This document shows, piece by piece, positions 1,451 through 8,949 of a stretch of DNA of 8,949 bases. Location: the IMG/VR virus record IMGVR_UViG_2585427710_000015. The stretch is one strand, 5' to 3'. Position 1 is the stretch's first letter. Each line of letters begins with the position of its first letter. The notes beneath the pieces are model-generated. The model was not told where the DNA came from. It did not search any database and saw only the letters and a list, made by a program, of their open reading frames with translations. Origin of the DNA: a virus (Duplodnaviria; Heunggongvirae; Uroviricota; Caudoviricetes). The translations under genes and the position numbers were made by a program.

Positions 1451-2028
1451 ACACGGCAGCGGAGGCCATCCGTGCCCTGTCGCAGCAGGTGCCGGGATTC
1501 CGCTGTCAGATGAACGAAGGCTGGTACCAGATACGTATTGCCGGTGAGGATACCGCGCCGGAGGCGGTGTATGCCCGTCTTCATGAACCGCTGAGCGGGA
1601 GGGCCGTGATTCATATTGTACCGAGGCTGGCAGGGGCCGGGGGAAATGGTGTTTTTCAGGTGGTGCTGGGGGTTGCAGCGATTGTCGGGTCATTTTTCAC
1701 TGGTGGTGCAACACTGGCGGCATGGGGCGCAGCCCTGAGTGCCGGAGGGCTGACTGCCACCACGATGCTGTTCTCACTGGGTGCCAGCATGATACTGGGT
1801 GGTGTGGCTCAGATGCTGGCCCCGAAGGCAACGACGCCGGAGTATAAAAGCACGGATAACGGCAGACAGAACACGTATTTTTCGTCACTGGATAACATGA
1901 TTGCCCAGGGGAACCCGATGCCGGTGCCTTACGGTGAAATGCTGGTTGGTTCACGACGGATATCCCAGGACATCAGCACCCGTGATGAGGGCGGAGACGG
2001 GAAAGTGGTGGTTATCGGACGGGGATAA
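1348..2028 (+). CDS. I: Tail tip assembly protein I (gpI-like)
   Basis: 226-aa ORF. The motifs RICL.GDLQRFGRRI, AVIHIVPR.AGA and the Gly/Ala-rich hydrophobic stretch (GSFFTGGATLAAWGAA..GG.T) plus the C-terminal NTYFSSLDNM.AQGN..PV.YGEM.VGSR..SQ.IST.DEG match recalled lambda gpI. The start overlaps the K 3' end by 103 nt. Confidence 0.9.
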   Translation: MATTNAFCLASPPLVRICLHGDLQRFGRRISLYVNTAAEAIRALSQQVPGFRCQMNEGWYQIRIAGEDTAPEAVYARLHEPLSGRAVIHIVPRLAGAGGNGVFQVVLGVAAIVGSFFTGGATLAAWGAALSAGGLTATTMLFSLGASMILGGVAQMLAPKATTPEYKSTDNGRQNTYFSSLDNMIAQGNPMPVPYGEMLVGSRRISQDISTRDEGGDGKVVVIGRG

Positions 2029-2066
2029 AAATAAAAAAATCCCGCAGAGTTAGCGGAGCTGCGGGA
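2029..2066 (-). terminator. Intrinsic (rho-independent) terminator for leftward transcription, placed immediately right of the I stop codon
   Basis: Read on the minus strand: UCCCGCAG-cuccgcuaacu-CUGCGGGA followed by UUUUUUUAUUUUUAU. The stem is 8 bp and GC-rich (+ coords 2040-2047 pairing with 2059-2066), the loop 11 nt, and the U-tract is the complement of + 2029-2039. On the + strand the same hairpin is followed by AGAGAUACG with no U-run, so it terminates only leftward transcripts. Confidence 0.7.
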
Positions 2067-2127
2067 AGAGATACGAAGATTAACTGTAAGGAGTTATTAT
2101 TATGTCACAGCAAAAAAACGGTAACGC
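2029..2127 (-). ncRNA. Candidate ~95-100 nt small RNA, transcribed leftward from the promoter at 2134-2161 and ending at the terminator at 2029-2066
   Basis: A near-consensus sigma70 promoter and an intrinsic terminator on the same (minus) strand bracket about 95 nt with no plausible ORF. Predicted RNA, 5' end approximate: cugcguuaccguuuuuuugcugugacauaauaauaacuccuuacaguuaaucuucguaucucuucccgcagcuccgcuaacucugcgggauuuuuuuauuuuuau. The TSS is predicted and the RNA is hypothetical until detected. Confidence 0.4.
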
Positions 2128-2140
2128 AGAGAAATTATAA
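2102..2140 (+). CDS. Tiny ORF (12 codons, MSQQKNGNAEKL) with a strong Shine-Dalgarno; possibly a leader peptide or a remnant translation start, and possibly not expressed
   Basis: TAAGGAG at 2087-2093 is followed after 8 nt by ATG at 2102, and the ORF ends at TAA 2138-2140. The SD and the whole ORF are fully complementary to the candidate minus-strand RNA. The peptide is short and hydrophilic and does not look like a type I toxin. Confidence 0.15.
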   Translation: MSQQKNGNAEKL

Positions 2141-2161
2141 GCGCCACTGGGATTTTGTGAA
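2134..2161 (-). promoter_or_regulatory. Sigma70-like promoter on the minus strand: -35 TTCACA, 16-bp spacer, -10 TATAAT
   Basis: On the minus strand, -35 TTCACA is the reverse complement of + 2156-2161 (5/6 match to TTGACA). The 16-bp spacer is the complement of + 2140-2155. The -10 TATAAT is the complement of + 2134-2139 and is a perfect consensus hexamer. The upstream minus-strand sequence, which is the 27-bp repeat, is AT-rich and could act as an UP-like element. Predicted TSS is near + coordinate 2127. Confidence 0.55.
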
Positions 2162-2187
2162 AATGTGAAGAATTTCAGAAATTTTAT
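2161..2187. repeat. Copy 1 of a perfect 27-bp direct repeat AAATGTGAAGAATTTCAGAAATTTTAT containing a CRP-box-like TGTGA-N6-TCAGA
   Basis: Identical 27-mers occur at 2161-2187 and 2340-2366. The flanking sequence 5' of each copy is similar but degenerate (cactgggattttg versus cacgggaatttg). The core resembles the CRP consensus AAATGTGA-N6-TCACATTT, with AAATGTGA exact and TCAGA versus TCACA. Confidence 0.8.
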
Positions 2188-2339
2188 GTTGCGGAGCTGA
2201 ACTAAAAAACGCTCCCGCAATACACCTGGATATTAACGGGAGGAACGAATAGTCACCTTAAGGAGTTGCGATTAATTGCTTTTATTGACCGCAGGTAATC
2301 TACCCATCCGGCAAGGTTTCCTCCACGGGAATTTGCCGG

Positions 2340-2366
2340 AAATGTGAAGAATTTCAGAAATTTTAT
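2340..2366. repeat. Copy 2 of the perfect 27-bp direct repeat (CRP-box-like TGTGA-N6-TCAGA)
   Basis: Identical to 2161-2187 and 179 bp downstream of it. It lies 12 nt upstream of the rightward terminator hairpin and 86 nt upstream of the J start codon. Confidence 0.8.
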
Positions 2367-2377
2367 TCCGTCATGAC

Positions 2378-2409
2378 ACAGGCACCCTCCGGGGTGCCTG
2401 TCGTTTTCT
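2378..2409 (+). terminator. Intrinsic terminator on the + strand, 43 nt upstream of the J start
   Basis: Perfect 10-bp inverted repeat ACAGGCACCC (2378-2387) / GGGTGCCTGT (2392-2401) with a 4-nt loop UCCG, followed by CGUUUUCUG. On the minus strand no U-run follows the hairpin. Confidence 0.6.
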
Positions 2410-2451: not shown

Positions 2452-5400
2452 GTGGGTAAAGGGGGTGGCAAGGGGCACACACCGCGTGAGGCGAAGGACA
2501 ATCTCAAATCCACGCAGATGATGAGCGTGATTGATGCCATCGGTGAGGGACCGGTGGAAGGCCCGGTGAAGGGACTGCAGAGTATTCTGGTGAACAAAAC
2601 CCCGCTGACGGACACGGACGGTAATCCCGTGATACACGGTGTGACCGCCGTCTGGCGTGCCGGGGAGCAGGAGCAGACACCGCCGGAAGGCTTTGAGTCC
2701 TCCGGTGCTGAAACCGCACTGGGCGTGGAAGTGACGAAGGCAAAGCCGGTGACGCGCACCATTACGTCCGCGAACATTGACCGCCTGCGGGTCACCTTCG
2801 GGGTGCAGTCACTGTTGGAGACCACCTCAAAGGGCGACCGTAATCCCTCTTCTGTCCGACTGCTGATTCAGTTGCAGCGTAACGGTAACTGGGTGACGGA
2901 AAAGGATGTCACCATTAACGGCAAGACCACCTCACAGTACCTGGCGTCGGTGATTCTGGAGAATCTGCCTGAGCGGCCCTTTAACATCCGGATGGTCCGG
3001 GAGACGGCGGACAGCACCACGGACCAGCTGCAGAATAAGACGCTCTGGTCGTCATACACCGAAATCATCGATGTGAAACAGTGCTACCCGAACACGGCCA
3101 TTGTGGGGCTGCAGGTGGATGCGGAGCAGTTCGGCGGCCAGCAGATGACGGTGAACTACCATATCCGCGGTCGCATCATCCAGGTGCCGTCAAACTATGA
3201 CCCGGAAAAACGCACCTACAGCGGTATCTGGGACGGCAGCCTGAAACCGGCATACAGCAATAACCCGGCCTGGTGCCTGTGGGACATGCTGACTCACCCG
3301 CGCTACGGGATGGGAAAACGCCTGGGGGCCGCGGATGTGGACAAGTGGGCGCTGTATGCCATCGGGCAGTACTGCGACCAGACGGTCCCGGATGGTTTCG
3401 GGGGCACAGAGCCGCGGATGACCTTTAATGCGTACCTGTCACAGCAGCGTAAGGTGTGGGATGTCCTGGGGGATTTCTGCTCGGCGATGCGCTGTATGCC
3501 GGTATGGAACGGTCAGACGCTGACGTTCGTTCAGGACCGTCCGTCGGATGTGGTGTGGCCGTACACGAACAGCGATGTGGTGGTGGATGATAACGGCGTG
3601 GGGTTCCGCTACAGCTTCAGCGCCCTGAAGGACCGCCACACGGCGGTGGAGGTGAATTACACCGACCCGCAGAACGGCTGGCAGACCTCCACGGAACTGG
3701 TGGAAGACCCGGAAGCCATACTGCGCTACGGGCGCAACCTGCTGAAGATGGATGCGTTCGGCTGTACCAGCCGCGGTCAGGCCCACCGTGCCGGACTGTG
3801 GGTGATAAAGACAGAACTGCTGGAAACGCAGACGGTGGATTTCACGCTCGGGTCTCAGGGGCTGCGGCACACACCCGGTGACATCATTGAAATCTGTGAT
3901 AACGACTATGCCGGGACCCTGACCGGCGGACGCATCCTGTCCATCGATGCCGCCAGCCGCACACTGACGCTGGACCGTGAGGTGACACTGCCGGAAGCAG
4001 GTACATCGACGGTGAACCTGATTAACGGCCGTGGTAAGCCGGTGCGCGTGGACATCACTGCACAACCCGCCCCGGACCGGATACAGGTCAGCACCCTGCC
4101 TGATGGTGTGGAGACATACGGTGTATGGGGACTCTCCCTGCCGTCACTGCGTCGTCGCCTGTTCCGCTGTGTCTCCATCCGGGAAAACACGGACGGCACC
4201 TTTGCCATCACGGCGGTGCAGCACGTACCGGAAAAAGAAGCCATCGTGGATAACGGGGCCCGCTTTGAGCCGATGTCCGGCTCACTGAACAGCGTCATCC
4301 CGCCGGCGGTGCAGCACCTCACGGTGGAGGTGAGTGCCTCAGACGGCCAGTATCTGGCGCTGGCGAAATGGGACACGCCGCGGGTGGTGAAGGGTGTGCG
4401 CTTCAGTCTGCGCCTGACCAGCGGAAGCGGTGAAAACAGCCGTCTGGTGACCAGCGCCATCACTGCCGACACGGAGCACCGTTTCAGTGGCCTGCCGCCC
4501 GGGGAATACACCCTGACGGTCAGGGCGATAAACAGCTACGGCCAGCAGGGCGAACCTGCCACCACCACGTTCCGGATTAACGCACCGGCAGCACCGGCCA
4601 GCATTGAACTGACGCCGGGGTATTATCAGATAACGGCGGTCCCGCATCTTACGGTGTATGACCCGACGGTACAATTTGAGTTCTGGTTTTCGGAGGCAAA
4701 AGTCGCAGACACCGCACAGGTGGAAACGTCCGGCCGTTATCTGGGTACCGGCAGCCAGTGGAGTGTCTCCGGCCCGCACATTAAGCCCGGGAAGGATTTC
4801 TGGTTTTATGTGCGCAGCGTCAACCTGGTGGGGAAATCTGCGTTTGTGGAGGCCAGCGGGCAGGCCAGCAATGATGGTGAAGGGTATCTGGAAATTTTCC
4901 GTGGGCTGATAGATGAGGCGCTGCTGGGGAAGGCACTGAAAGAGCGTATTGATGCGTCAGCCCTGCGTACTGAGGTCACGCAACTGGAAGAAGACATCCG
5001 CCAGCGGCTGGAGACGGATGTTGCGGAAGTGACCCGAAAAATCGGGGAGGCGGAAAACAGCCTCACGCAGCTGGTTGCGAAAAAGAATGAGGACCAGACG
5101 CTGGCCATCGCGCAGGTGAGTCAGCAGGTGGACCGGGTGAGCAGTGAAATCACACAGACAGTCAGCCAGAGCACGGAGGAAAACGCCAGGCAGATAGCGC
5201 AGGTCCGCCAGTACGTGGATGACAAAGGGAGTGAAATCACCTCGACCACGGATAAAAAGCTGGAAGACCAGAGCGCGACCATACAGCAGATACAGCAGGT
5301 CCAGTCAGACACGAATGATGAGCTGGCAGCGCTGTACATGCTGAAGGTGCAGAAAACGAAAAACGGCATTCCGTATGTTGCCGGTATTGGTGCGGGGATT

Positions 5401-6147
5401 GAGGATGCTGATGGCCAGACGCTGAGCAATATTCTGCTGCAGGCGGACCGTATCGCGATGATTACCCCGGAGAACGGCAACACCACGCCGCTATTTGTGG
5501 CGCAGGGGAATCAGTTGTTCATGAACGATGTGTTCCTGAAGCGGCTGTTTGCGGTGAGTATCACCTCGTCCGGCAATCCCCCGACGTTTTCCCTGACGCC
5601 GGAGGGCAGGCTGACGGCCCGCAATGCGGACATCAGCGGACATATCAGTGCGAACTCGGGCACGCTCAATAATGTTGTGATAGCGGAGAACTGTACGATA
5701 AATGGCACGCTGAAAGCGGGAAACATCATCGGGGATCTTATCAAGGGCGGGAGTGGCGCTTTCCCGCGTCAGAATGAGGGCAGTGTGAACTGGCCTTCCG
5801 GAACGCGCACGTTCACTGTGTATGATGATCACCCGTTTGACCGCCAGATAGTGGTACTTCCGCTGACATTTCGCGGAAGCAGGCGTACCGACAGCGGCAG
5901 AACAACATATTCGATGTGTTATCTGAAGGTGCTGATGAACGGTGCAGTGATTTATGACGGCGTGGCGAATGATGCACCTCAGGTTTTCGCCCGAATTGTG
6001 GATATGCGTGCGGGAGGTGGACACGTAACCCTGACATTCACGGTCACGTCCACACGGCATTCGGGAAATATTCCGCCGGATACGTTTGCCAGTGATGTAC
6101 AGGTTCTTGTGATGAAAAAGGGGGCATCAGGTATCAGTATCAGCTGA
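2452..6147 (+). CDS. J: Central tail fibre / host specificity protein J (gpJ-like), 1231 aa
   Basis: GTG start at 2452, preceded by AGGAG at 2436-2440 and a G-rich stretch. The N-terminus [22 protein letters not shown] and the protein throughout are collinear with recalled lambda gpJ (1132 aa). The C-terminus (...[21 protein letters not shown]) is also lambda-like. There is about 100 aa of extra heptad-like sequence around residues 809-980 relative to lambda. Confidence 0.95.
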
Positions 6148-6166: not shown

Positions 6167-6190
6167 GGCACCCGAAGTGGTGCCTTTTTT
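6167..6190 (+). terminator. Intrinsic terminator after J
   Basis: Stem GGCACC (6167-6172) / GGUGCC (6179-6184), 6-nt loop, followed by UUUUUUAUU (6185-6193). It starts 20 nt after the J stop (TGA 6145-6147). Confidence 0.6.
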
Positions 6191-6215
6191 ATTGACTGAA
6201 AACAAAGAGGTAATC

Positions 6216-6839
6216 ATGCGGTATTTATACGGAGCCATTTTATTTTTTACCACCCTGCCGGCAGTAATGACTTTTCCTGCACAGGCTGCAGGCGGACACG
6301 GTGCATTTTCCGTTGGATATGCTCAGGTTCACCCGGGCGGCGTGCCGGTATTGTCCGGTACCGGTGCCCGTACAGGTGATTTAAAAGGGATCAACGTGAA
6401 ATACCGTTATGAATTCACGGACCATCTGGGCGGCATAGCCTCGCTGAGTTACGCCTCTGCGAAAAAGAGCAGAACCACGATGACCGGGGATAAGGCATTT
6501 CATTATGAAAGTCTGCGTGGCCGTTATGTGAGCCTGATGGCGGGGCCGGTCTGGCAGGTCAGTGAGCAGCTCAGTCTTTATGGCATGGCCGGGATGGCGC
6601 ACACCCGCTGGTCTGACAGTGTTCAGGATTACCGGCGTGATGAAGTGACACCGGGGGATGTCAGGGTGACCACCACTGCCAGTGATGGCCATTCTGCACG
6701 TCATCTGACGCTGGCATGGGGGGCAGGGCTTCAGTTTAATCCGGCGGATACGGTGGCGGTTGATCTTGCGTACGAAGTGGCCGGTCATGGTGACTGGCGA
6801 ACGGATGCGTTTATTGTTGGGATTGGATACCGTTTCTGA
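6216..6839 (+). CDS. lom: Lom-like outer membrane protein (Ail/Lom/PagC/Rck family beta-barrel), a lysogenic-conversion moron
   Basis: ATG at 6216 with AAAGAGG 5 nt upstream. N-terminal signal peptide MRYLYGAILFFTTLPAVMTFPAQA followed by AGGHG. GGHG.F.VGY.QV.PG, LKGINVKYRYE.TD, FHYESLRGRYVS.MAGPV, GDWRTD.FIVG.GY.F match recalled lambda Lom. The position between J and stf matches lambda. The longer ORF from 6177 lacks an RBS and would begin inside the terminator's U-tract. Confidence 0.85.
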   Translation: MRYLYGAILFFTTLPAVMTFPAQAAGGHGAFSVGYAQVHPGGVPVLSGTGARTGDLKGINVKYRYEFTDHLGGIASLSYASAKKSRTTMTGDKAFHYESLRGRYVSLMAGPVWQVSEQLSLYGMAGMAHTRWSDSVQDYRRDEVTPGDVRVTTTASDGHSARHLTLAWGAGLQFNPADTVAVDLAYEVAGHGDWRTDAFIVGIGYRF

Positions 6840-6990: not shown

Positions 6991-8949
6991 ATGACGGTTA
7001 AAATTTCTGGTGTGCTGAAGGACGGGGCCGGTAAGCCGGTACCGGGATGCACGATAGAGCTGAAAGCGCGACGCACAACGGAGACGGTGATTGTCACCAC
7101 GGTGGCGTATGGTCAGCCGGGGGAAACCGGCAGTTACAGTATGGATGTTGAGCCGGGGTTGTACCGGGTGACGCTGAACACGGAAGGGTACGCGCCGTCA
7201 TATGTGGGTGACATTCTGGTGAAGGCGGACTCTGCACCGGGAACGCTGAATAAATTTCTGATGGACCTGGAGGACGCACAGTATTACCCGAAAGCCCTTG
7301 CAGAGCTGGAAGCGGTGGCCGCGGAAATCCTGAAACGTGCGGAAGCGTCAGCGGCGAGTGCAGAGGAAGCGAAGAAACGGGCAGAGAATGCGCGGGGACC
7401 GAAGGGGGATAAGGGAGACACCGGGCCACAGGGTATTCCCGGGCCAAAAGGCGATACCGGCGAGCGGGGGCCAAAGGGTGAGCGTGGTGAGAGGGGGCCG
7501 CAGGGGCTTCAGGGTGTGAAAGGTGAACGGGGAGAGAAGGGCGAAAAAGGCGAGCCGGGAGGACCGGATGCGACGACGGCACAGAAGGGAATTGTGCAGT
7601 TAAGCAGCGCAACGGACAGTGATGATGAAACGAAGGCAGCCACCCCGAAAGCGGTGAAAGCGGCAATGGACAAAGCGGACGGATGCCTGGAGAAAGCGAA
7701 AAACGGTGACGATATCCCGGATAAGGTGCAGTTTCTGAACACTGTGGGAGCAGCCAGAGTATACGGGCGGGACATTCATACGGGGGCCGGTGAATGGACC
7801 ACGAGCGAGTTTGTCGCCTGGCTGAAAGCCAAAGGGGCATTTGACCAGCCTTACTGGATGATGAAGGCATCACTGCATGCGGGATTCAATAAGGTCATCA
7901 CGGATGTCGGACCGGGAAAACTTAATCTGGGTGGCTGTGTCATTGAGGTGATGGGGAAGTATGAGGCAGCCATAGTCCGGGTCACCATTGGCGAATACGG
8001 TGCAACGGGGTTTATTAATGGCACGGTCTGTACCTGTACGGTTTACGGCGACACACAGTATTTCCACTGGCGGGTGGATTACAGCACAAAAAACAAACCG
8101 GATACGGTCAGCCAGCGGGATGCCAGCACGACGCAGAAAGGTGTGGTGCAGTTAAGCAGTGATACTGGCAGTAATGACGAAACAAAGGCAGCCACGCCGA
8201 AGGCCGTGAAGGCGGCAATGGATGTGGCAAATGAAGCGAAAACAAAGGCAGAAGAGGCTGCAGCAGGAGGTGGTGTTCCCGGTCCGAAAGGAGATAAAGG
8301 GGACACGGGGCCGGCAGGTCCGGCTGGGCCGAGGGGCCCTCAGGGACCAAAGGGGGATACTGGCGCTCCCGGGGCAAAAGGTGAGAAAGGAGCCACCGGC
8401 GCAACCGGGCCACAGGGAGCAAAAGGGGATAAAGGTGATCCCGGCCCTCAGGGACCAAAGGGGGATGCTGGCGCTCCCGGGGCAAAAGGTGAGAAAGGAG
8501 CCACCGGCGCAACCGGGCCACAGGGAGCAAAAGGGGATAAAGGTGATCCCGGCCCTCAGGGACCAAAGGGGGATACTGGCGCTCCTGGGGCAAAAGGTGA
8601 GAAAGGAGCCACCGGCGCAACCGGGCCACAGGGACCAAAAGGGGATAAAGGTGATCCCGGTCCCCGGGGGGCAACAGGCCCACAGGGACCAGCTGGCTCA
8701 CCGGCAGGTGGTTTGCATGCTGTTGGGGCATTTGTCTTTGCTCAGGCCAGTATAAGTAACAGTGAAAAATATGCCGCAGGTGCCGTGCTTGCGGGAAGTA
8801 AACTGAGAGAATGTAGCATTCAACTGGGCTCTCAGAAAGCAGCCACATTAACCGGTAATACACTGCCAGGAACATGGCGGGTCTGTAGTCCACTTCAGGT
8901 CAGTTCAATATATCCTTACTGTGTGGGGCTGTTTCAGCGTATATCGTGA
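6991..8949 (+). CDS. stf: Side tail fibre protein (Stf-like) with collagen-like Gly-X-Y repeat blocks, 652 aa; the stop codon is the last three bases of the window
   Basis: The N-terminus [28 protein letters not shown] matches recalled lambda Stf ([26 protein letters not shown]). Two copies of the lambda-Stf-like motif [26 protein letters not shown] occur at nt 7573-7677 and 8125-8223. Collagen-like G-X-Y blocks lie at about 7393-7567 and 8269-8710. TGA at 8947-8949 ends the ORF exactly at the window edge, so downstream context such as a tfa gene cannot be seen. Confidence 0.85.
8341..8664. repeat. Three near-identical tandem copies of a 108-bp unit (36 aa, [36 protein letters not shown]) inside the stf collagen-like block
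   Basis: Copies at 8341-8448, 8449-8556 and 8557-8664 differ at only a few positions (gatact/gatgct, ctccc/ctcct, ggagcaaaa/ggaccaaaa). Found by direct reading. Confidence 0.9.

What the first reader, a model, noticed from the sequence alone, without database searches (positions are those of the whole stretch)
2029..2127. Candidate leftward small RNA gene between tail genes I and J, with a near-consensus promoter and a strong intrinsic terminator
On the minus strand, TTCACA-16-TATAAT (+ coords 2161-2134) is followed about 60 nt later by an 8-bp GC-rich hairpin and U7AU5 (2066-2029). This is the architecture of an independent ~95-nt sRNA transcription unit, oriented against the late tail operon and ending 1 nt from the I stop codon. 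It contains no credible ORF. It is perfectly antisense to a + strand SD/start (TAAGGAG-8nt-ATG) and carries a CUCCUUA tract. I know of no described lambda function at this position. Prophage-encoded Hfq-dependent sRNAs and anti-sRNAs are known in enterobacterial prophages, but I cannot assign this to any named family from the sequence alone.
Basis: seen in the sequence. Interest (0 to 1): 0.78.

Follow-up and report, generated by a model that had tools for sequence, protein, structure and literature searches.

The report
Prophage PasB/EcOnc22-family small RNA gene
The stretch between tail genes I and J carries a real, self-contained small-RNA gene pointing against the tail operon, but it is a variant of an Hfq-bound prophage sRNA already detected in EHEC (EcOnc22-24) and EPEC (PasB) whose function is still unknown.

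Summary
On the minus strand, TTCACA-16-TATAAT (2161-2134) is the only promoter-like site in the window. It is followed 61 nt after the predicted start (G2127) by an 8-bp GC hairpin (2066-2040) and U7 (2039-2033).

The unit is not an orphan. It is homologous (79-80% identity; nhmmer E 7e-43), syntenic and co-oriented with two published sRNAs. PasB of EPEC E2348/69 is 83 nt, seen on Northern blots, Hfq-dependent, and has RIL-seq partners including ler, perB and bfp. EcOnc22/23/24 of EHEC Sakai prophages Sp15/14/11 were found by Hfq-CRAC, run at ~85 nt and are destabilised without hfq. The family is absent from Rfam 15 and from the RefSeq annotation of the regions I inspected.

Family units occur in 1786 of 5426 complete E. 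coli genomes, as 0-4 tandem copies per I-J spacer. The window holds two: the finding, and a diverged copy with no recognisable promoter (2364-2205).

Conserved parts:
- a CRP-like box upstream
- the -10 hexamer
- an A-R-N run
- a CUCCUU tract
- a U-rich tract and the terminator

Pairing analysis of six PasB RIL-seq partners places the seed on the CUCCUU tract. The + strand mini-ORF is not conserved.

Best reading: an Hfq-dependent trans-acting sRNA expressed in lysogens. It is a new member of a known kind, of modest interest.

The parts
2161..2182 (.). CRP-like box upstream of the sRNA promoter (+ strand AAATGTGAagaattTCAGAAAT)
   Evidence: It matches AAATGTGA-N6-TCACATTT at 13 of 16 specified positions. 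The window has 2 such sites against 0.04 expected by chance. The half-sites are kept and the N6 varies in every promoter-bearing unit surveyed, at a fixed distance from the -10. The centre lies 32.5 bp upstream of the -10 edge (about -44.5), which is not a canonical CRP position. Function is inferred, not shown.
2156..2161 (-). -35 hexamer TTCACA
   Evidence: Mean column identity across units is 0.71. It is degenerate (TTCCGG, TTTCTG) in other subfamilies that are nevertheless expressed, for example EcOnc22.
2134..2139 (-). -10 hexamer TATAAT
   Evidence: It reads TATAAT, AATAAT, GATAAT or TATCAT in nearly all promoter-bearing units. Mean column identity is 0.80.
2033..2127 (-). Predicted sRNA transcript (95 nt, from G2127 to the end of U7). 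The equivalent of the annotated 83-nt PasB would start near 2112.
   Evidence: The start is predicted as the 7th nt after the -10. The transcript is 78.8% identical to PasB and 80.4% to EcOnc22. The family HMM hits 2185-2030 on the minus strand with E 7e-43. Fold z = -3.2.
2112..2118 (-). 5' U run (U7), preceded by the conserved GCGUUAC
   Evidence: Conserved columns. The run length varies (U7, U8, U9) between near-identical alleles.
2093..2101 (-). A-R-N run AAUAAUAAC (three A-R-N triplets)
   Evidence: 40 of 44 family variants have at least 3 consecutive A-R-N triplets at this position although the letters differ. A-R-N is the Hfq-bound motif reported by Tree et al. 2014 (abstract).
2084..2095 (-).
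   Evidence: Mean column identity is 0.87 for the core. In PasB the homologous tract is the single minimum of pairing energy against 5 of 6 RIL-seq partner segments, mean z -2.2 to -2.3. For this allele the seed assignment is inferred.
2067..2083 (-). U-rich tract UUAAUCUUC plus linker, directly 5' of the terminator
   Evidence: UUAAUCUUC is the most conserved unpaired segment (0.93). Its position fits the U-rich part of an Hfq-binding module (established knowledge; not tested here).
2040..2066 (-). Intrinsic terminator hairpin: 8 bp (UCCCGCAG/CUGCGGGA) with an 11-nt loop
   Evidence: The arms show 0.94 and 0.99 identity. It is the only consensus structure found by RNAalifold. The pairs are nearly invariant, so there is no covariation evidence.
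2027..2039 (-). U7-A-U5 tail, overlapping the I stop codon by 2 nt
   Evidence: On the + strand the hairpin is followed by AAGAGAUACG, so it should not terminate the late operon.
2205..2364 (-). Second, diverged tandem unit ('unit B'). It has a CRP-like box at 2340-2361, the tract AACUCCUUAAGG at 2267-2256, and a hairpin CUCCCG/CGGGAG followed by CG and U6 at 2243-2204. No -35 or -10 is recognisable at the homologous position.
   Evidence: Direct repeats with 172-179 bp spacing. The family HMM hits 2364-2205 on the minus strand with E 4e-24. The same unit type with an intact -10-like hexamer (TATAAT, CATAAT) exists in L009, L127 and L128. Expression of this copy is unknown.

Best explanation
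Window 2182-2027 (minus strand) is an autonomous small-RNA gene of the PasB/EcOnc22-24 family. This is a lysogen-expressed 'moron' that lambdoid prophages of E. coli carry in the spacer between tail genes I and J.

Shown, by sequence here and by experiment on homologues:
- A sigma-70 promoter drives transcription against the late operon.
- A strong intrinsic terminator stops it at the I stop codon. The terminator works in this direction only.
- The homologous RNAs are ~83-85 nt, bind Hfq and depend on it for stability.
- They form Hfq-mediated chimeras with host and virulence mRNAs.

Inferred:
- Hfq holds the RNA through the 3' U tail, the U-rich tract before the hairpin, and the A-R-N run.
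- The pyrimidine tract AACUCCUU (2095-2088) is the seed. It pairs with GGAG-rich sites in target mRNAs and changes their translation or stability.
- The conserved TGTGA-N6-TCAGA box upstream lets a regulator, CRP being the best guess, tune the promoter.
- The second unit in this window is a paralogue with no recognisable promoter.
For: Homology and synteny. PasB coordinates fall in the E2348/69 I-J spacer on the anti-tail strand and align with the window unit from the promoter to the U tail. Identity is 78.8% to PasB and 80.4% to EcOnc22. The family HMM scores E 7e-43.

Experimental support on homologues. PasB was confirmed by Northern blot, is reported as Hfq-dependent in stability, and ranks 15th for RIL-seq interactions with 37 partners. 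Its RIL-seq partners in the activating condition are bfpB, bfpI, ftsZ, galE, ler, perB, rplX and the pasA-E2348C_0689 intergenic region. EcOnc22 gave an Hfq-CRAC peak, runs at ~85 nt and is destabilised in delta-hfq. After correcting a ~+140-nt coordinate offset, calibrated on AsxR and AgvB, its peak covers the sRNA body.

Conservation pattern typical of an sRNA gene. The -10, seed, U-rich tract and terminator are conserved and the linkers are variable.

Seed. There is a single pairing-energy minimum on ...ACUCCUUCAC... for 5 of 6 partners. The predicted sites lie inside or next to the RIL-seq segments.

A-R-N run. Present in 40 of 44 variants.

Promoter and fold. The promoter match is rare by chance. 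Fold z = -3.2.

Regulator box.. PasB is higher in overnight LB than in DMEM, while Spot 42 behaves the opposite way.
Against: - No expression data exist for this allele or strain.
- The validated RNAs are 10-15 nt shorter than promoter-to-terminator predicts. The true 5' end, or a processing step, is unresolved.
- The seed inference rests on six partner segments from another allele. That allele's tract differs 3' of CUCCUU (CACA versus ACAG), and the 2021 authors did not report a common target motif for PasB.
- The 2026 preprint places its proposed PasB seed 'just upstream of the terminator', which may mean the UUAAUCUUC tract instead.
- The CRP-like box is centred about -44.5, not at -41.5 or -61.5. 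The window allele has a near-consensus -35 and may not need an activator.
- No regulatory outcome on any target has been demonstrated for any family member (targets 'unknown').
- The terminator pairs are invariant, so there is no covariation support.
Confidence: 0.8

Rival explanations
1. The RNA acts mainly in cis. It is perfectly complementary to the I-J intercistronic part of the late mRNA. It would pair with that mRNA to trigger cleavage or to damp leaky J, lom or tail-fibre expression in lysogens. Conversely, the abundant late mRNA would titrate the sRNA during lytic growth.
For: The RNA is fully antisense to + strand 2033-2127, by position. It is convergent with the late operon. Its complement on the + strand carries a strong SD-like TAAGGAG. 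Other phage antisense RNAs work this way (established knowledge).
Against: - The J ribosome-binding site is more than 300 nt away, at about 2435-2451.
- The spacer is dispensable and highly plastic. It holds 0 to 4 units, lambda-type phages have none, and sodC is inserted in others. Tail-gene expression therefore cannot depend on it.
- RIL-seq shows many trans partners.
- The seed tract diversifies between copies, which is hard to explain for a purely cis role.
Confidence: 0.1
2. The unit is chiefly an insulator or a decaying remnant. The hairpin and U run would merely stop stray antisense transcription from entering I-K-L, and the RNA itself would have no regulatory role.
For: The terminator is the best-conserved part. 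In sodC-bearing spacers the promoterless unit sits where a terminator for sodC is needed. Unit B of this window has no recognisable promoter. No phenotype is published.
Against: Unpaired segments upstream of the terminator (AACUCC, UUAAUCUUC, the A-R-N run, the -10 and the upstream box) are conserved as well. The RNA is abundant on Hfq and has reproducible partners. The family is kept in a third of complete E. coli genomes, at up to 8 places per genome.
Confidence: 0.06
3. The functional product is on the + strand: a 12-codon leader peptide (MSQQKNGNAEKL, 2102-2140) with a strong SD, translated from the late mRNA.
For: TAAGGAG, 8 nt, then ATG with an in-frame stop.
Against: The ORF is not conserved. 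Near-identical alleles that differ only in A-run length are frameshifted (MSQQKKR*, and a 22-aa product). More than half of the 47 units have no SD-plus-start at all. The SD-like sequence is simply the complement of the conserved sRNA tract.
Confidence: 0.02

Closest known systems
PasB (pathogenicity-associated sRNA B) of EPEC E2348/69, prophage PP6 (Pearl Mizrahi et al. 2021, PMC8550237; Zhu, Shabalina and Storz 2026 preprint)
   Same: It has the same position (directly after the I stop, before J), the same orientation, the same TTCACA-16-TATAAT promoter, and the same terminator arms and U7. The predicted transcript is 78.8% identical.
   Different: The 5' third and the bases 3' of CUCCUU differ (CACAUUG versus ACAGUUA), as do 3 loop bases under the published Northern probe. 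The window also has a second tandem unit, whereas the preprint reports a minimum distance of 28 kb between pasB copies. This allele occurs at 95% identity or better in only 22 of 20,395 records.
EcOnc22 / EcOnc23 / EcOnc24 of EHEC O157:H7 Sakai, prophages Sp15, Sp14 and Sp11 (Tree et al. 2014, PMC4104026)
   Same: They share the same spacer and strand, 80.4% identity and an identical terminator, including the loop.
   Different: The Sakai units have a poor -35 (TTCCGG) and an AATAAT -10. Their tract reads CUCCAU rather than CUCCUU. The link between EcOnc22-24 and PasB is not made in the PasB table note of the 2021 paper or in the 2026 preprint, which has no 'EcOnc' mention. I made it here after correcting a ~140-nt coordinate offset.
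AgvB / AsxR anti-sRNAs and HnrS (EcOnc10-12): other Hfq-bound sRNAs of EHEC lambdoid prophages
   Same: They are prophage-borne, expressed in lysogens, Hfq-associated, end in intrinsic terminators, are often multicopy, and have seeds that diversify between copies.
   Different: They sit at different loci: the PR' moron site for AgvB and AsxR, and elsewhere in the late genes for HnrS. They are shorter (51-66 nt). Sequence is unrelated: Rfam AgvB, AsxR and STnc100 models hit their own loci but not this window.
Class II Hfq sRNAs, and CRP-controlled sRNAs such as CyaR, McaS and Spot 42 (resemblance in mode of action only; recalled from knowledge)
   Same: The layout of an A-R-N run plus a 3' U tail, and a CRP-type box at the promoter.
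   Different: Neither Hfq-face usage nor CRP dependence has been tested for this family. The box spacing is non-canonical.

Membership tests
PasB / EcOnc22-24 sRNA family | Located in the spacer between tail genes I and J of a lambdoid prophage, transcribed against the tail operon | tested here: met
   Pfam confirms L, K, I, J, Lom and the tail fibre around the spacer. The unit is on the minus strand directly after the I stop. The arrangement is the same in E2348/69 and in Sakai Sp15, Sp14 and Sp11.
PasB / EcOnc22-24 sRNA family | Sequence homology to the validated RNAs over the whole unit | tested here: met
   Alignment A1. Identity is 78.8% to PasB and 80.4% to EcOnc22. nhmmer E 3e-42 with a single query and 7e-43 with the family HMM.
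PasB / EcOnc22-24 sRNA family | Own promoter, and an intrinsic terminator with a long U tail | tested here: met
   An 11-of-12 promoter match, an 8-bp GC hairpin and U7, conserved across units. This is predicted from sequence only.
PasB / EcOnc22-24 sRNA family | Expressed as an RNA of about 83-85 nt in lysogens | not testable with these tools
   No transcript data for this allele. The prediction is 95 nt from G2127. Homologues were measured at 83 nt and ~85 nt.
PasB / EcOnc22-24 sRNA family | Binds Hfq and needs it for stability | not testable with these tools
   Only the motifs can be checked. The U7 tail, the U-rich tract before the hairpin and the A-R-N run are present. Binding was shown for homologues.
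Any Rfam 15 family (including AgvB RF02702, AsxR RF02703, STnc100 RF02076, Esr41, IsrG) | Score at or above the family gathering threshold | tested here: not met
   No match at gathering thresholds in the whole window. The best sub-threshold hits score about 20 bits against thresholds of 45-99, with E-values of 0.7-8.
CRP-activated promoters (class I or class II) | A CRP site (TGTGA-N6-TCACA) centred near -41.5 or -61.5 | tested here: inconclusive
   The site is present and conserved (13 of 16 positions), but its centre is about -44.5 relative to the predicted start. Expression of PasB is consistent with CRP control (LB higher than DMEM, opposite to Spot 42), but the two conditions differ in many ways.
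Small protein or leader-peptide gene on the + strand | A reading frame kept among homologues | tested here: not met
   The frame is broken by homopolymer length changes in near-identical alleles and is absent from most variants.

The most novel reading that the evidence does not exclude
The I-J spacer of E. coli lambdoid prophages may be an expandable cassette site for one sRNA gene family, not the home of a single sRNA. It holds 0, 1, 2, 3 or 4 tandem units. Each unit has the same conserved regulator box (TGTGA-N6-TCAGA, possibly CRP), an A-R-N run, a U-rich tract and a terminator. The seed tracts differ: at least 12 variants were seen, for example CUCCUUACAG, CUCCUUCACA, CUCCAUAAC, CUCCCUGUG, CCUCCUUAAGG and CGCCAACAGG. 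On this reading, prophages duplicate and diversify a carbon-source-responsive Hfq sRNA to retarget host and virulence mRNAs. EcOnc22-24, PasB and the window's two units would all be members of one superfamily that is much larger than the published PasB census (3968 places in 1786 complete genomes here, against 1158 BLAST hits in the preprint).
Probability: 0.4. Interest if true: 0.55.

Novelty: new member of a known kind. Interest (0 to 1): 0.36.

Why it matters
The locus is easy to miss. No Rfam model exists, and none of the RefSeq or GenBank records I inspected annotates it. Yet a third of complete E. coli genomes carry it, often in several prophages.

Its validated relatives sit on Hfq with transcripts of master virulence regulators (ler, perB) and of the bundle-forming pilus. 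Naming this copy correctly prevents it from being reported as a new sRNA.

Three outputs could help turn a 'function unknown' sRNA into a testable one:
- linking EcOnc22-24 with PasB
- the tandem-array picture
- the candidate seed and regulator box

A covariance or HMM model of the unit would let the family be annotated routinely.

Tried and rejected
- Rfam at gathering and at permissive thresholds found nothing.
- AgvB/AsxR identity is rejected. Those genes lie at the PR' moron site, and their models do not hit the window.
- HnrS (EcOnc10-12) looked promising because it is a multicopy prophage sRNA. It is a different 66-nt RNA at another locus.
- RNAalifold and covariation returned only the terminator, and its pairs are invariant. 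There is no covariation evidence either way.
- A whole-molecule duplexfold of PasB against its partners gave meaningless full-length hybrids with z near 0. I replaced it with 14-nt sliding windows.
- The + strand mini-ORF is rejected.
- I looked for TSS data (Sakai dRNA-seq and Term-seq), but no supplement is held for that paper.
- A class I reading of unit B (TAGATT as the -10, which would put the box at about -60.5) is a 4-of-6 match and is treated as speculation only.
- A Cra-like reading of the box (TGAA-N4-TTCA) was considered but could not be tested.

Full report
**Context.** The window is the tail-tip end of a lambdoid prophage. Pfam assigns L (58-693), K (704-1447), I (1447-2028), J (2452-6147), Lom (6177-6839) and a tail fibre (6991 onward). 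The I-J spacer (2029-2451, 423 bp) is 100% identical to prophages in E. coli 99-3311 and O103 ML775. Neither of the two full-length matching records I opened annotates anything in the spacer.

**Observation.**
- The consensus scan finds only two overlapping promoter-like sites in the whole window. Both are on the minus strand, ending at 2134. The best is TTCACA-16-TATAAT, matching 11 of 12 positions.
- A match of 11 of 12 or better appears in 9 of 300 dinucleotide shuffles.
- Downstream lie UCCCGCAG (2066-2059), an 11-nt loop, CUGCGGGA (2047-2040) and U7 (2039-2033), followed by A and U5. The U5 reaches two bases into the I stop codon.
- The 95-nt RNA from G2127 folds with that hairpin at -20.4 kcal/mol, z = -3.2.
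- On the + strand the hairpin is not followed by U residues, so it should not stop the late operon.

**Identity.** Rfam 15 has no match, but the literature does.
- Pearl Mizrahi et al. 2021 list PasB of EPEC E2348/69 at NC_011601 minus strand 1466343-1466261. It is 83 nt, lies in prophage PP6 and ranks 15th for RIL-seq interactions.
- In that genome the tail assembly gene I ends at 1466255 and J starts at 1466496. PasB therefore occupies exactly the position and strand of the finding.
- The two loci align from the promoter, which is identical (TTCACA-16-TATAAT), to the U tail.
- PasB was confirmed by Northern blot and its stability is reported as Hfq-dependent. In the wt versus delta-hfq table its log2 fold change is -6.8.

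**The EHEC relatives.**
- Tree et al. 2014 list EcOnc22, 23 and 24 as mutual homologues in Sakai prophages Sp15, Sp14 and Sp11. EcOnc22 runs at ~85 nt and is destabilised in delta-hfq.
- In NC_002695.2 all three peaks fall in I-J spacers on the anti-tail strand.
- The published coordinates come from an older genome version. Rfam places AsxR and AgvB1 137-146 nt higher than the published peaks.
- With that offset the EcOnc22 peak covers CUGAAAAAUAACUCCAUAACGUUAAUCUUCAUCGUUCUCUCCCGCAGCUCCGCUAACUCUG, which is the body of the unit.
- The window RNA is 78.8% identical to PasB and 80.4% to EcOnc22.
- A 2021 review still lists EcOnc22 targets as unknown.
- The 2021 table gives no EHEC homologue for PasB, and the 2026 Pas preprint never mentions EcOnc, promoters or CRP.

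**Survey.** I fetched loci encoding relatives of protein I and cut out the I-J spacers.
- Among 106 survey loci, 28 have a 55-57-bp lambda-type spacer with no unit. A further 74 have one unit, 3 have two and 1 has three.
- E. coli RM10466 has four units in a ~910-bp spacer, and STEC299 has two.
- A family HMM finds exactly two units in the window, both on the minus strand: 2185-2030 and 2364-2205.
- In complete E. coli genomes the unit occurs in 1786 of 5426, at 3968 places and up to 8 per genome. All 30 places sampled across the ranking have no feature annotated under them. This particular allele (95% identity or better) is in only 22 records.
- It also occurs in 147 sequenced phages, mostly Stx-converting.

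**Anatomy from 47 distinct units.** Mean column identity by segment:

| Segment | Mean column identity |
|---|---|
| Upstream box | 0.88 |
| -35 | 0.71 |
| -10 | 0.80 |
| Start region CUGCGUUAC | ~0.8-0.9 |
| U run | 0.83 |
| Variable stretch | 0.64 |
| UAACUCCUU | 0.87 |
| Four variable bases | 0.55 |
| UUAAUCUUC | 0.93 |
| Variable linker | 0.53 |
| Terminator arms | 0.94 / 0.99 |
| U tail | 0.95 |

RNAalifold recovers only the terminator, and its pairs do not vary. Structure is therefore supported by energy and conservation, not by covariation.

Forty of 44 variants have at least three consecutive A-R-N triplets directly 5' of the pyrimidine tract, although the letters differ.

**Seed.** I took the six usable PasB partner segments from the RIL-seq table (ler, ftsZ, galE, bfpB, bfpI, perB) and fetched them. 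I then scored 14-nt windows of PasB against each, with 60 shuffles per target.
- There is one minimum (mean z -2.2 to -2.3) at windows covering AACAACUCCUUCACAUUG. It is driven by five of the six partners.
- The predicted sites lie inside or next to the chimeric segments: UGUGAAGGA in ler, GUGAGGGGGA in galE, GUGGAGGGGU in bfpB, UGUGAUGGAGU in bfpI and GGAAGGAG in perB.
- The sample is small, comes from another allele, and most sites are inside coding regions rather than at ribosome-binding sites.

**Upstream box.** On the + strand it reads AAATGTGAagaattTCAGAAAT at 2161-2182 and again at 2340-2361.
- It matches the CRP consensus at 13 of 16 specified positions, with 0.04 such sites expected per window.
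- In all promoter-bearing units the half-sites persist while the central six bases vary, and the distance to the -10 is fixed.
- The centre is about -44.5, which is not a canonical CRP position. I therefore rate the CRP assignment as a hypothesis.
- PasB is higher in overnight LB than in exponential DMEM, while CRP-repressed Spot 42 behaves the opposite way. This is consistent but far from specific.

**Second unit.** Unit B (2364-2205) keeps the box, an AACUCCUUAAGG tract and a hairpin plus U6. It has lost the -35 and -10. The same unit type with an intact -10-like hexamer exists elsewhere. B-type sequence occurs in 110 of 5426 genomes. I regard this copy as probably silent, but that is untested.

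**Rejected readings.** The + strand 12-codon ORF (2102-2140) is frameshifted in near-identical alleles and absent from most variants. Identity with AgvB, AsxR or HnrS is excluded.

**Verdict.** The finding is real and was read correctly, but it belongs to a described, experimentally supported sRNA family of unknown function. Four things are added here:
- the family assignment, including the EcOnc22-24 = PasB link
- the tandem-array organisation, with a second unit in this window
- a candidate seed
- a conserved regulator box

Noticed in passing
window 2378-2401 (+ strand): A 10-bp perfect hairpin (ACAGGCACCC-TCCG-GGGTGCCTGT) followed by CGTTTTCTGG looks like a + strand terminator. It sits between the sRNA units and the J start codon, inside the late operon. 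It recurs in most spacers that carry units, including E2348/69 and Sakai.
   Followed up: partly
L011, L024, L042 and related loci (854-bp I-J spacers): A Cu/Zn superoxide dismutase gene (sodC; Pfam Sod_Cu, E 3.9e-32) is inserted on the sRNA strand. The unit downstream of it has lost the box, -35 and -10, and homology restarts at CTCTGAGTTAATG. That copy may be made as a sodC 3'UTR sRNA, or may simply serve as the sodC terminator.
   Followed up: partly
L127 (E. coli RM10466) 276-1108; L128 (STEC299) 525-918; L009 88-714: These are tandem arrays of four, two and three units in one I-J spacer. Each unit has the conserved box, a -10-like hexamer and a terminator, but the seed tracts differ. The inter-unit linkers are themselves repeated.
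   Followed up: partly
L080, L059, L023 class (339-346-bp spacers), J-proximal part: An extra hairpin plus U run on the sRNA strand (AAACCCCGGTATCAGCAGATACCGGGGTTTTCTTTC) lies upstream of the unit. It may be the end of another small transcript.
   Followed up: no
window 2112-2118: The 5' U run is U7 here but U8 and U9 in otherwise near-identical alleles (L008, L010). This looks like homopolymer slippage inside the transcribed region.
   Followed up: partly
Tree et al. 2014 Table S2 versus NC_002695.2: The published EcOnc coordinates are about 137-146 nt lower than in the current Sakai RefSeq record, as calibrated on AsxR and AgvB1. Direct look-ups therefore land on the wrong feature.
   Followed up: yes
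L086-L100 (genome-contig hits): Assemblies of unrelated organisms (Neobacillus, Pseudomonas, Shewanella, Bradyrhizobium and others) contain lambda-type I-J DNA. In several the contig names indicate about 1x coverage, and some contigs are ~48.5 kb. This is almost certainly lambda DNA contamination.
   Followed up: no
window 8426-8658: GGGATCACCTTTATCCC recurs three times with a 108-bp period on the minus strand, inside the tail-fibre gene. It coincides with the collagen and phage-fibre repeats found by Pfam.
   Followed up: no
window 2256-2263 (unit B): The tract of unit B contains the self-complementary octamer CCUUAAGG. If the RNA is made, this could allow it to dimerise.
   Followed up: no
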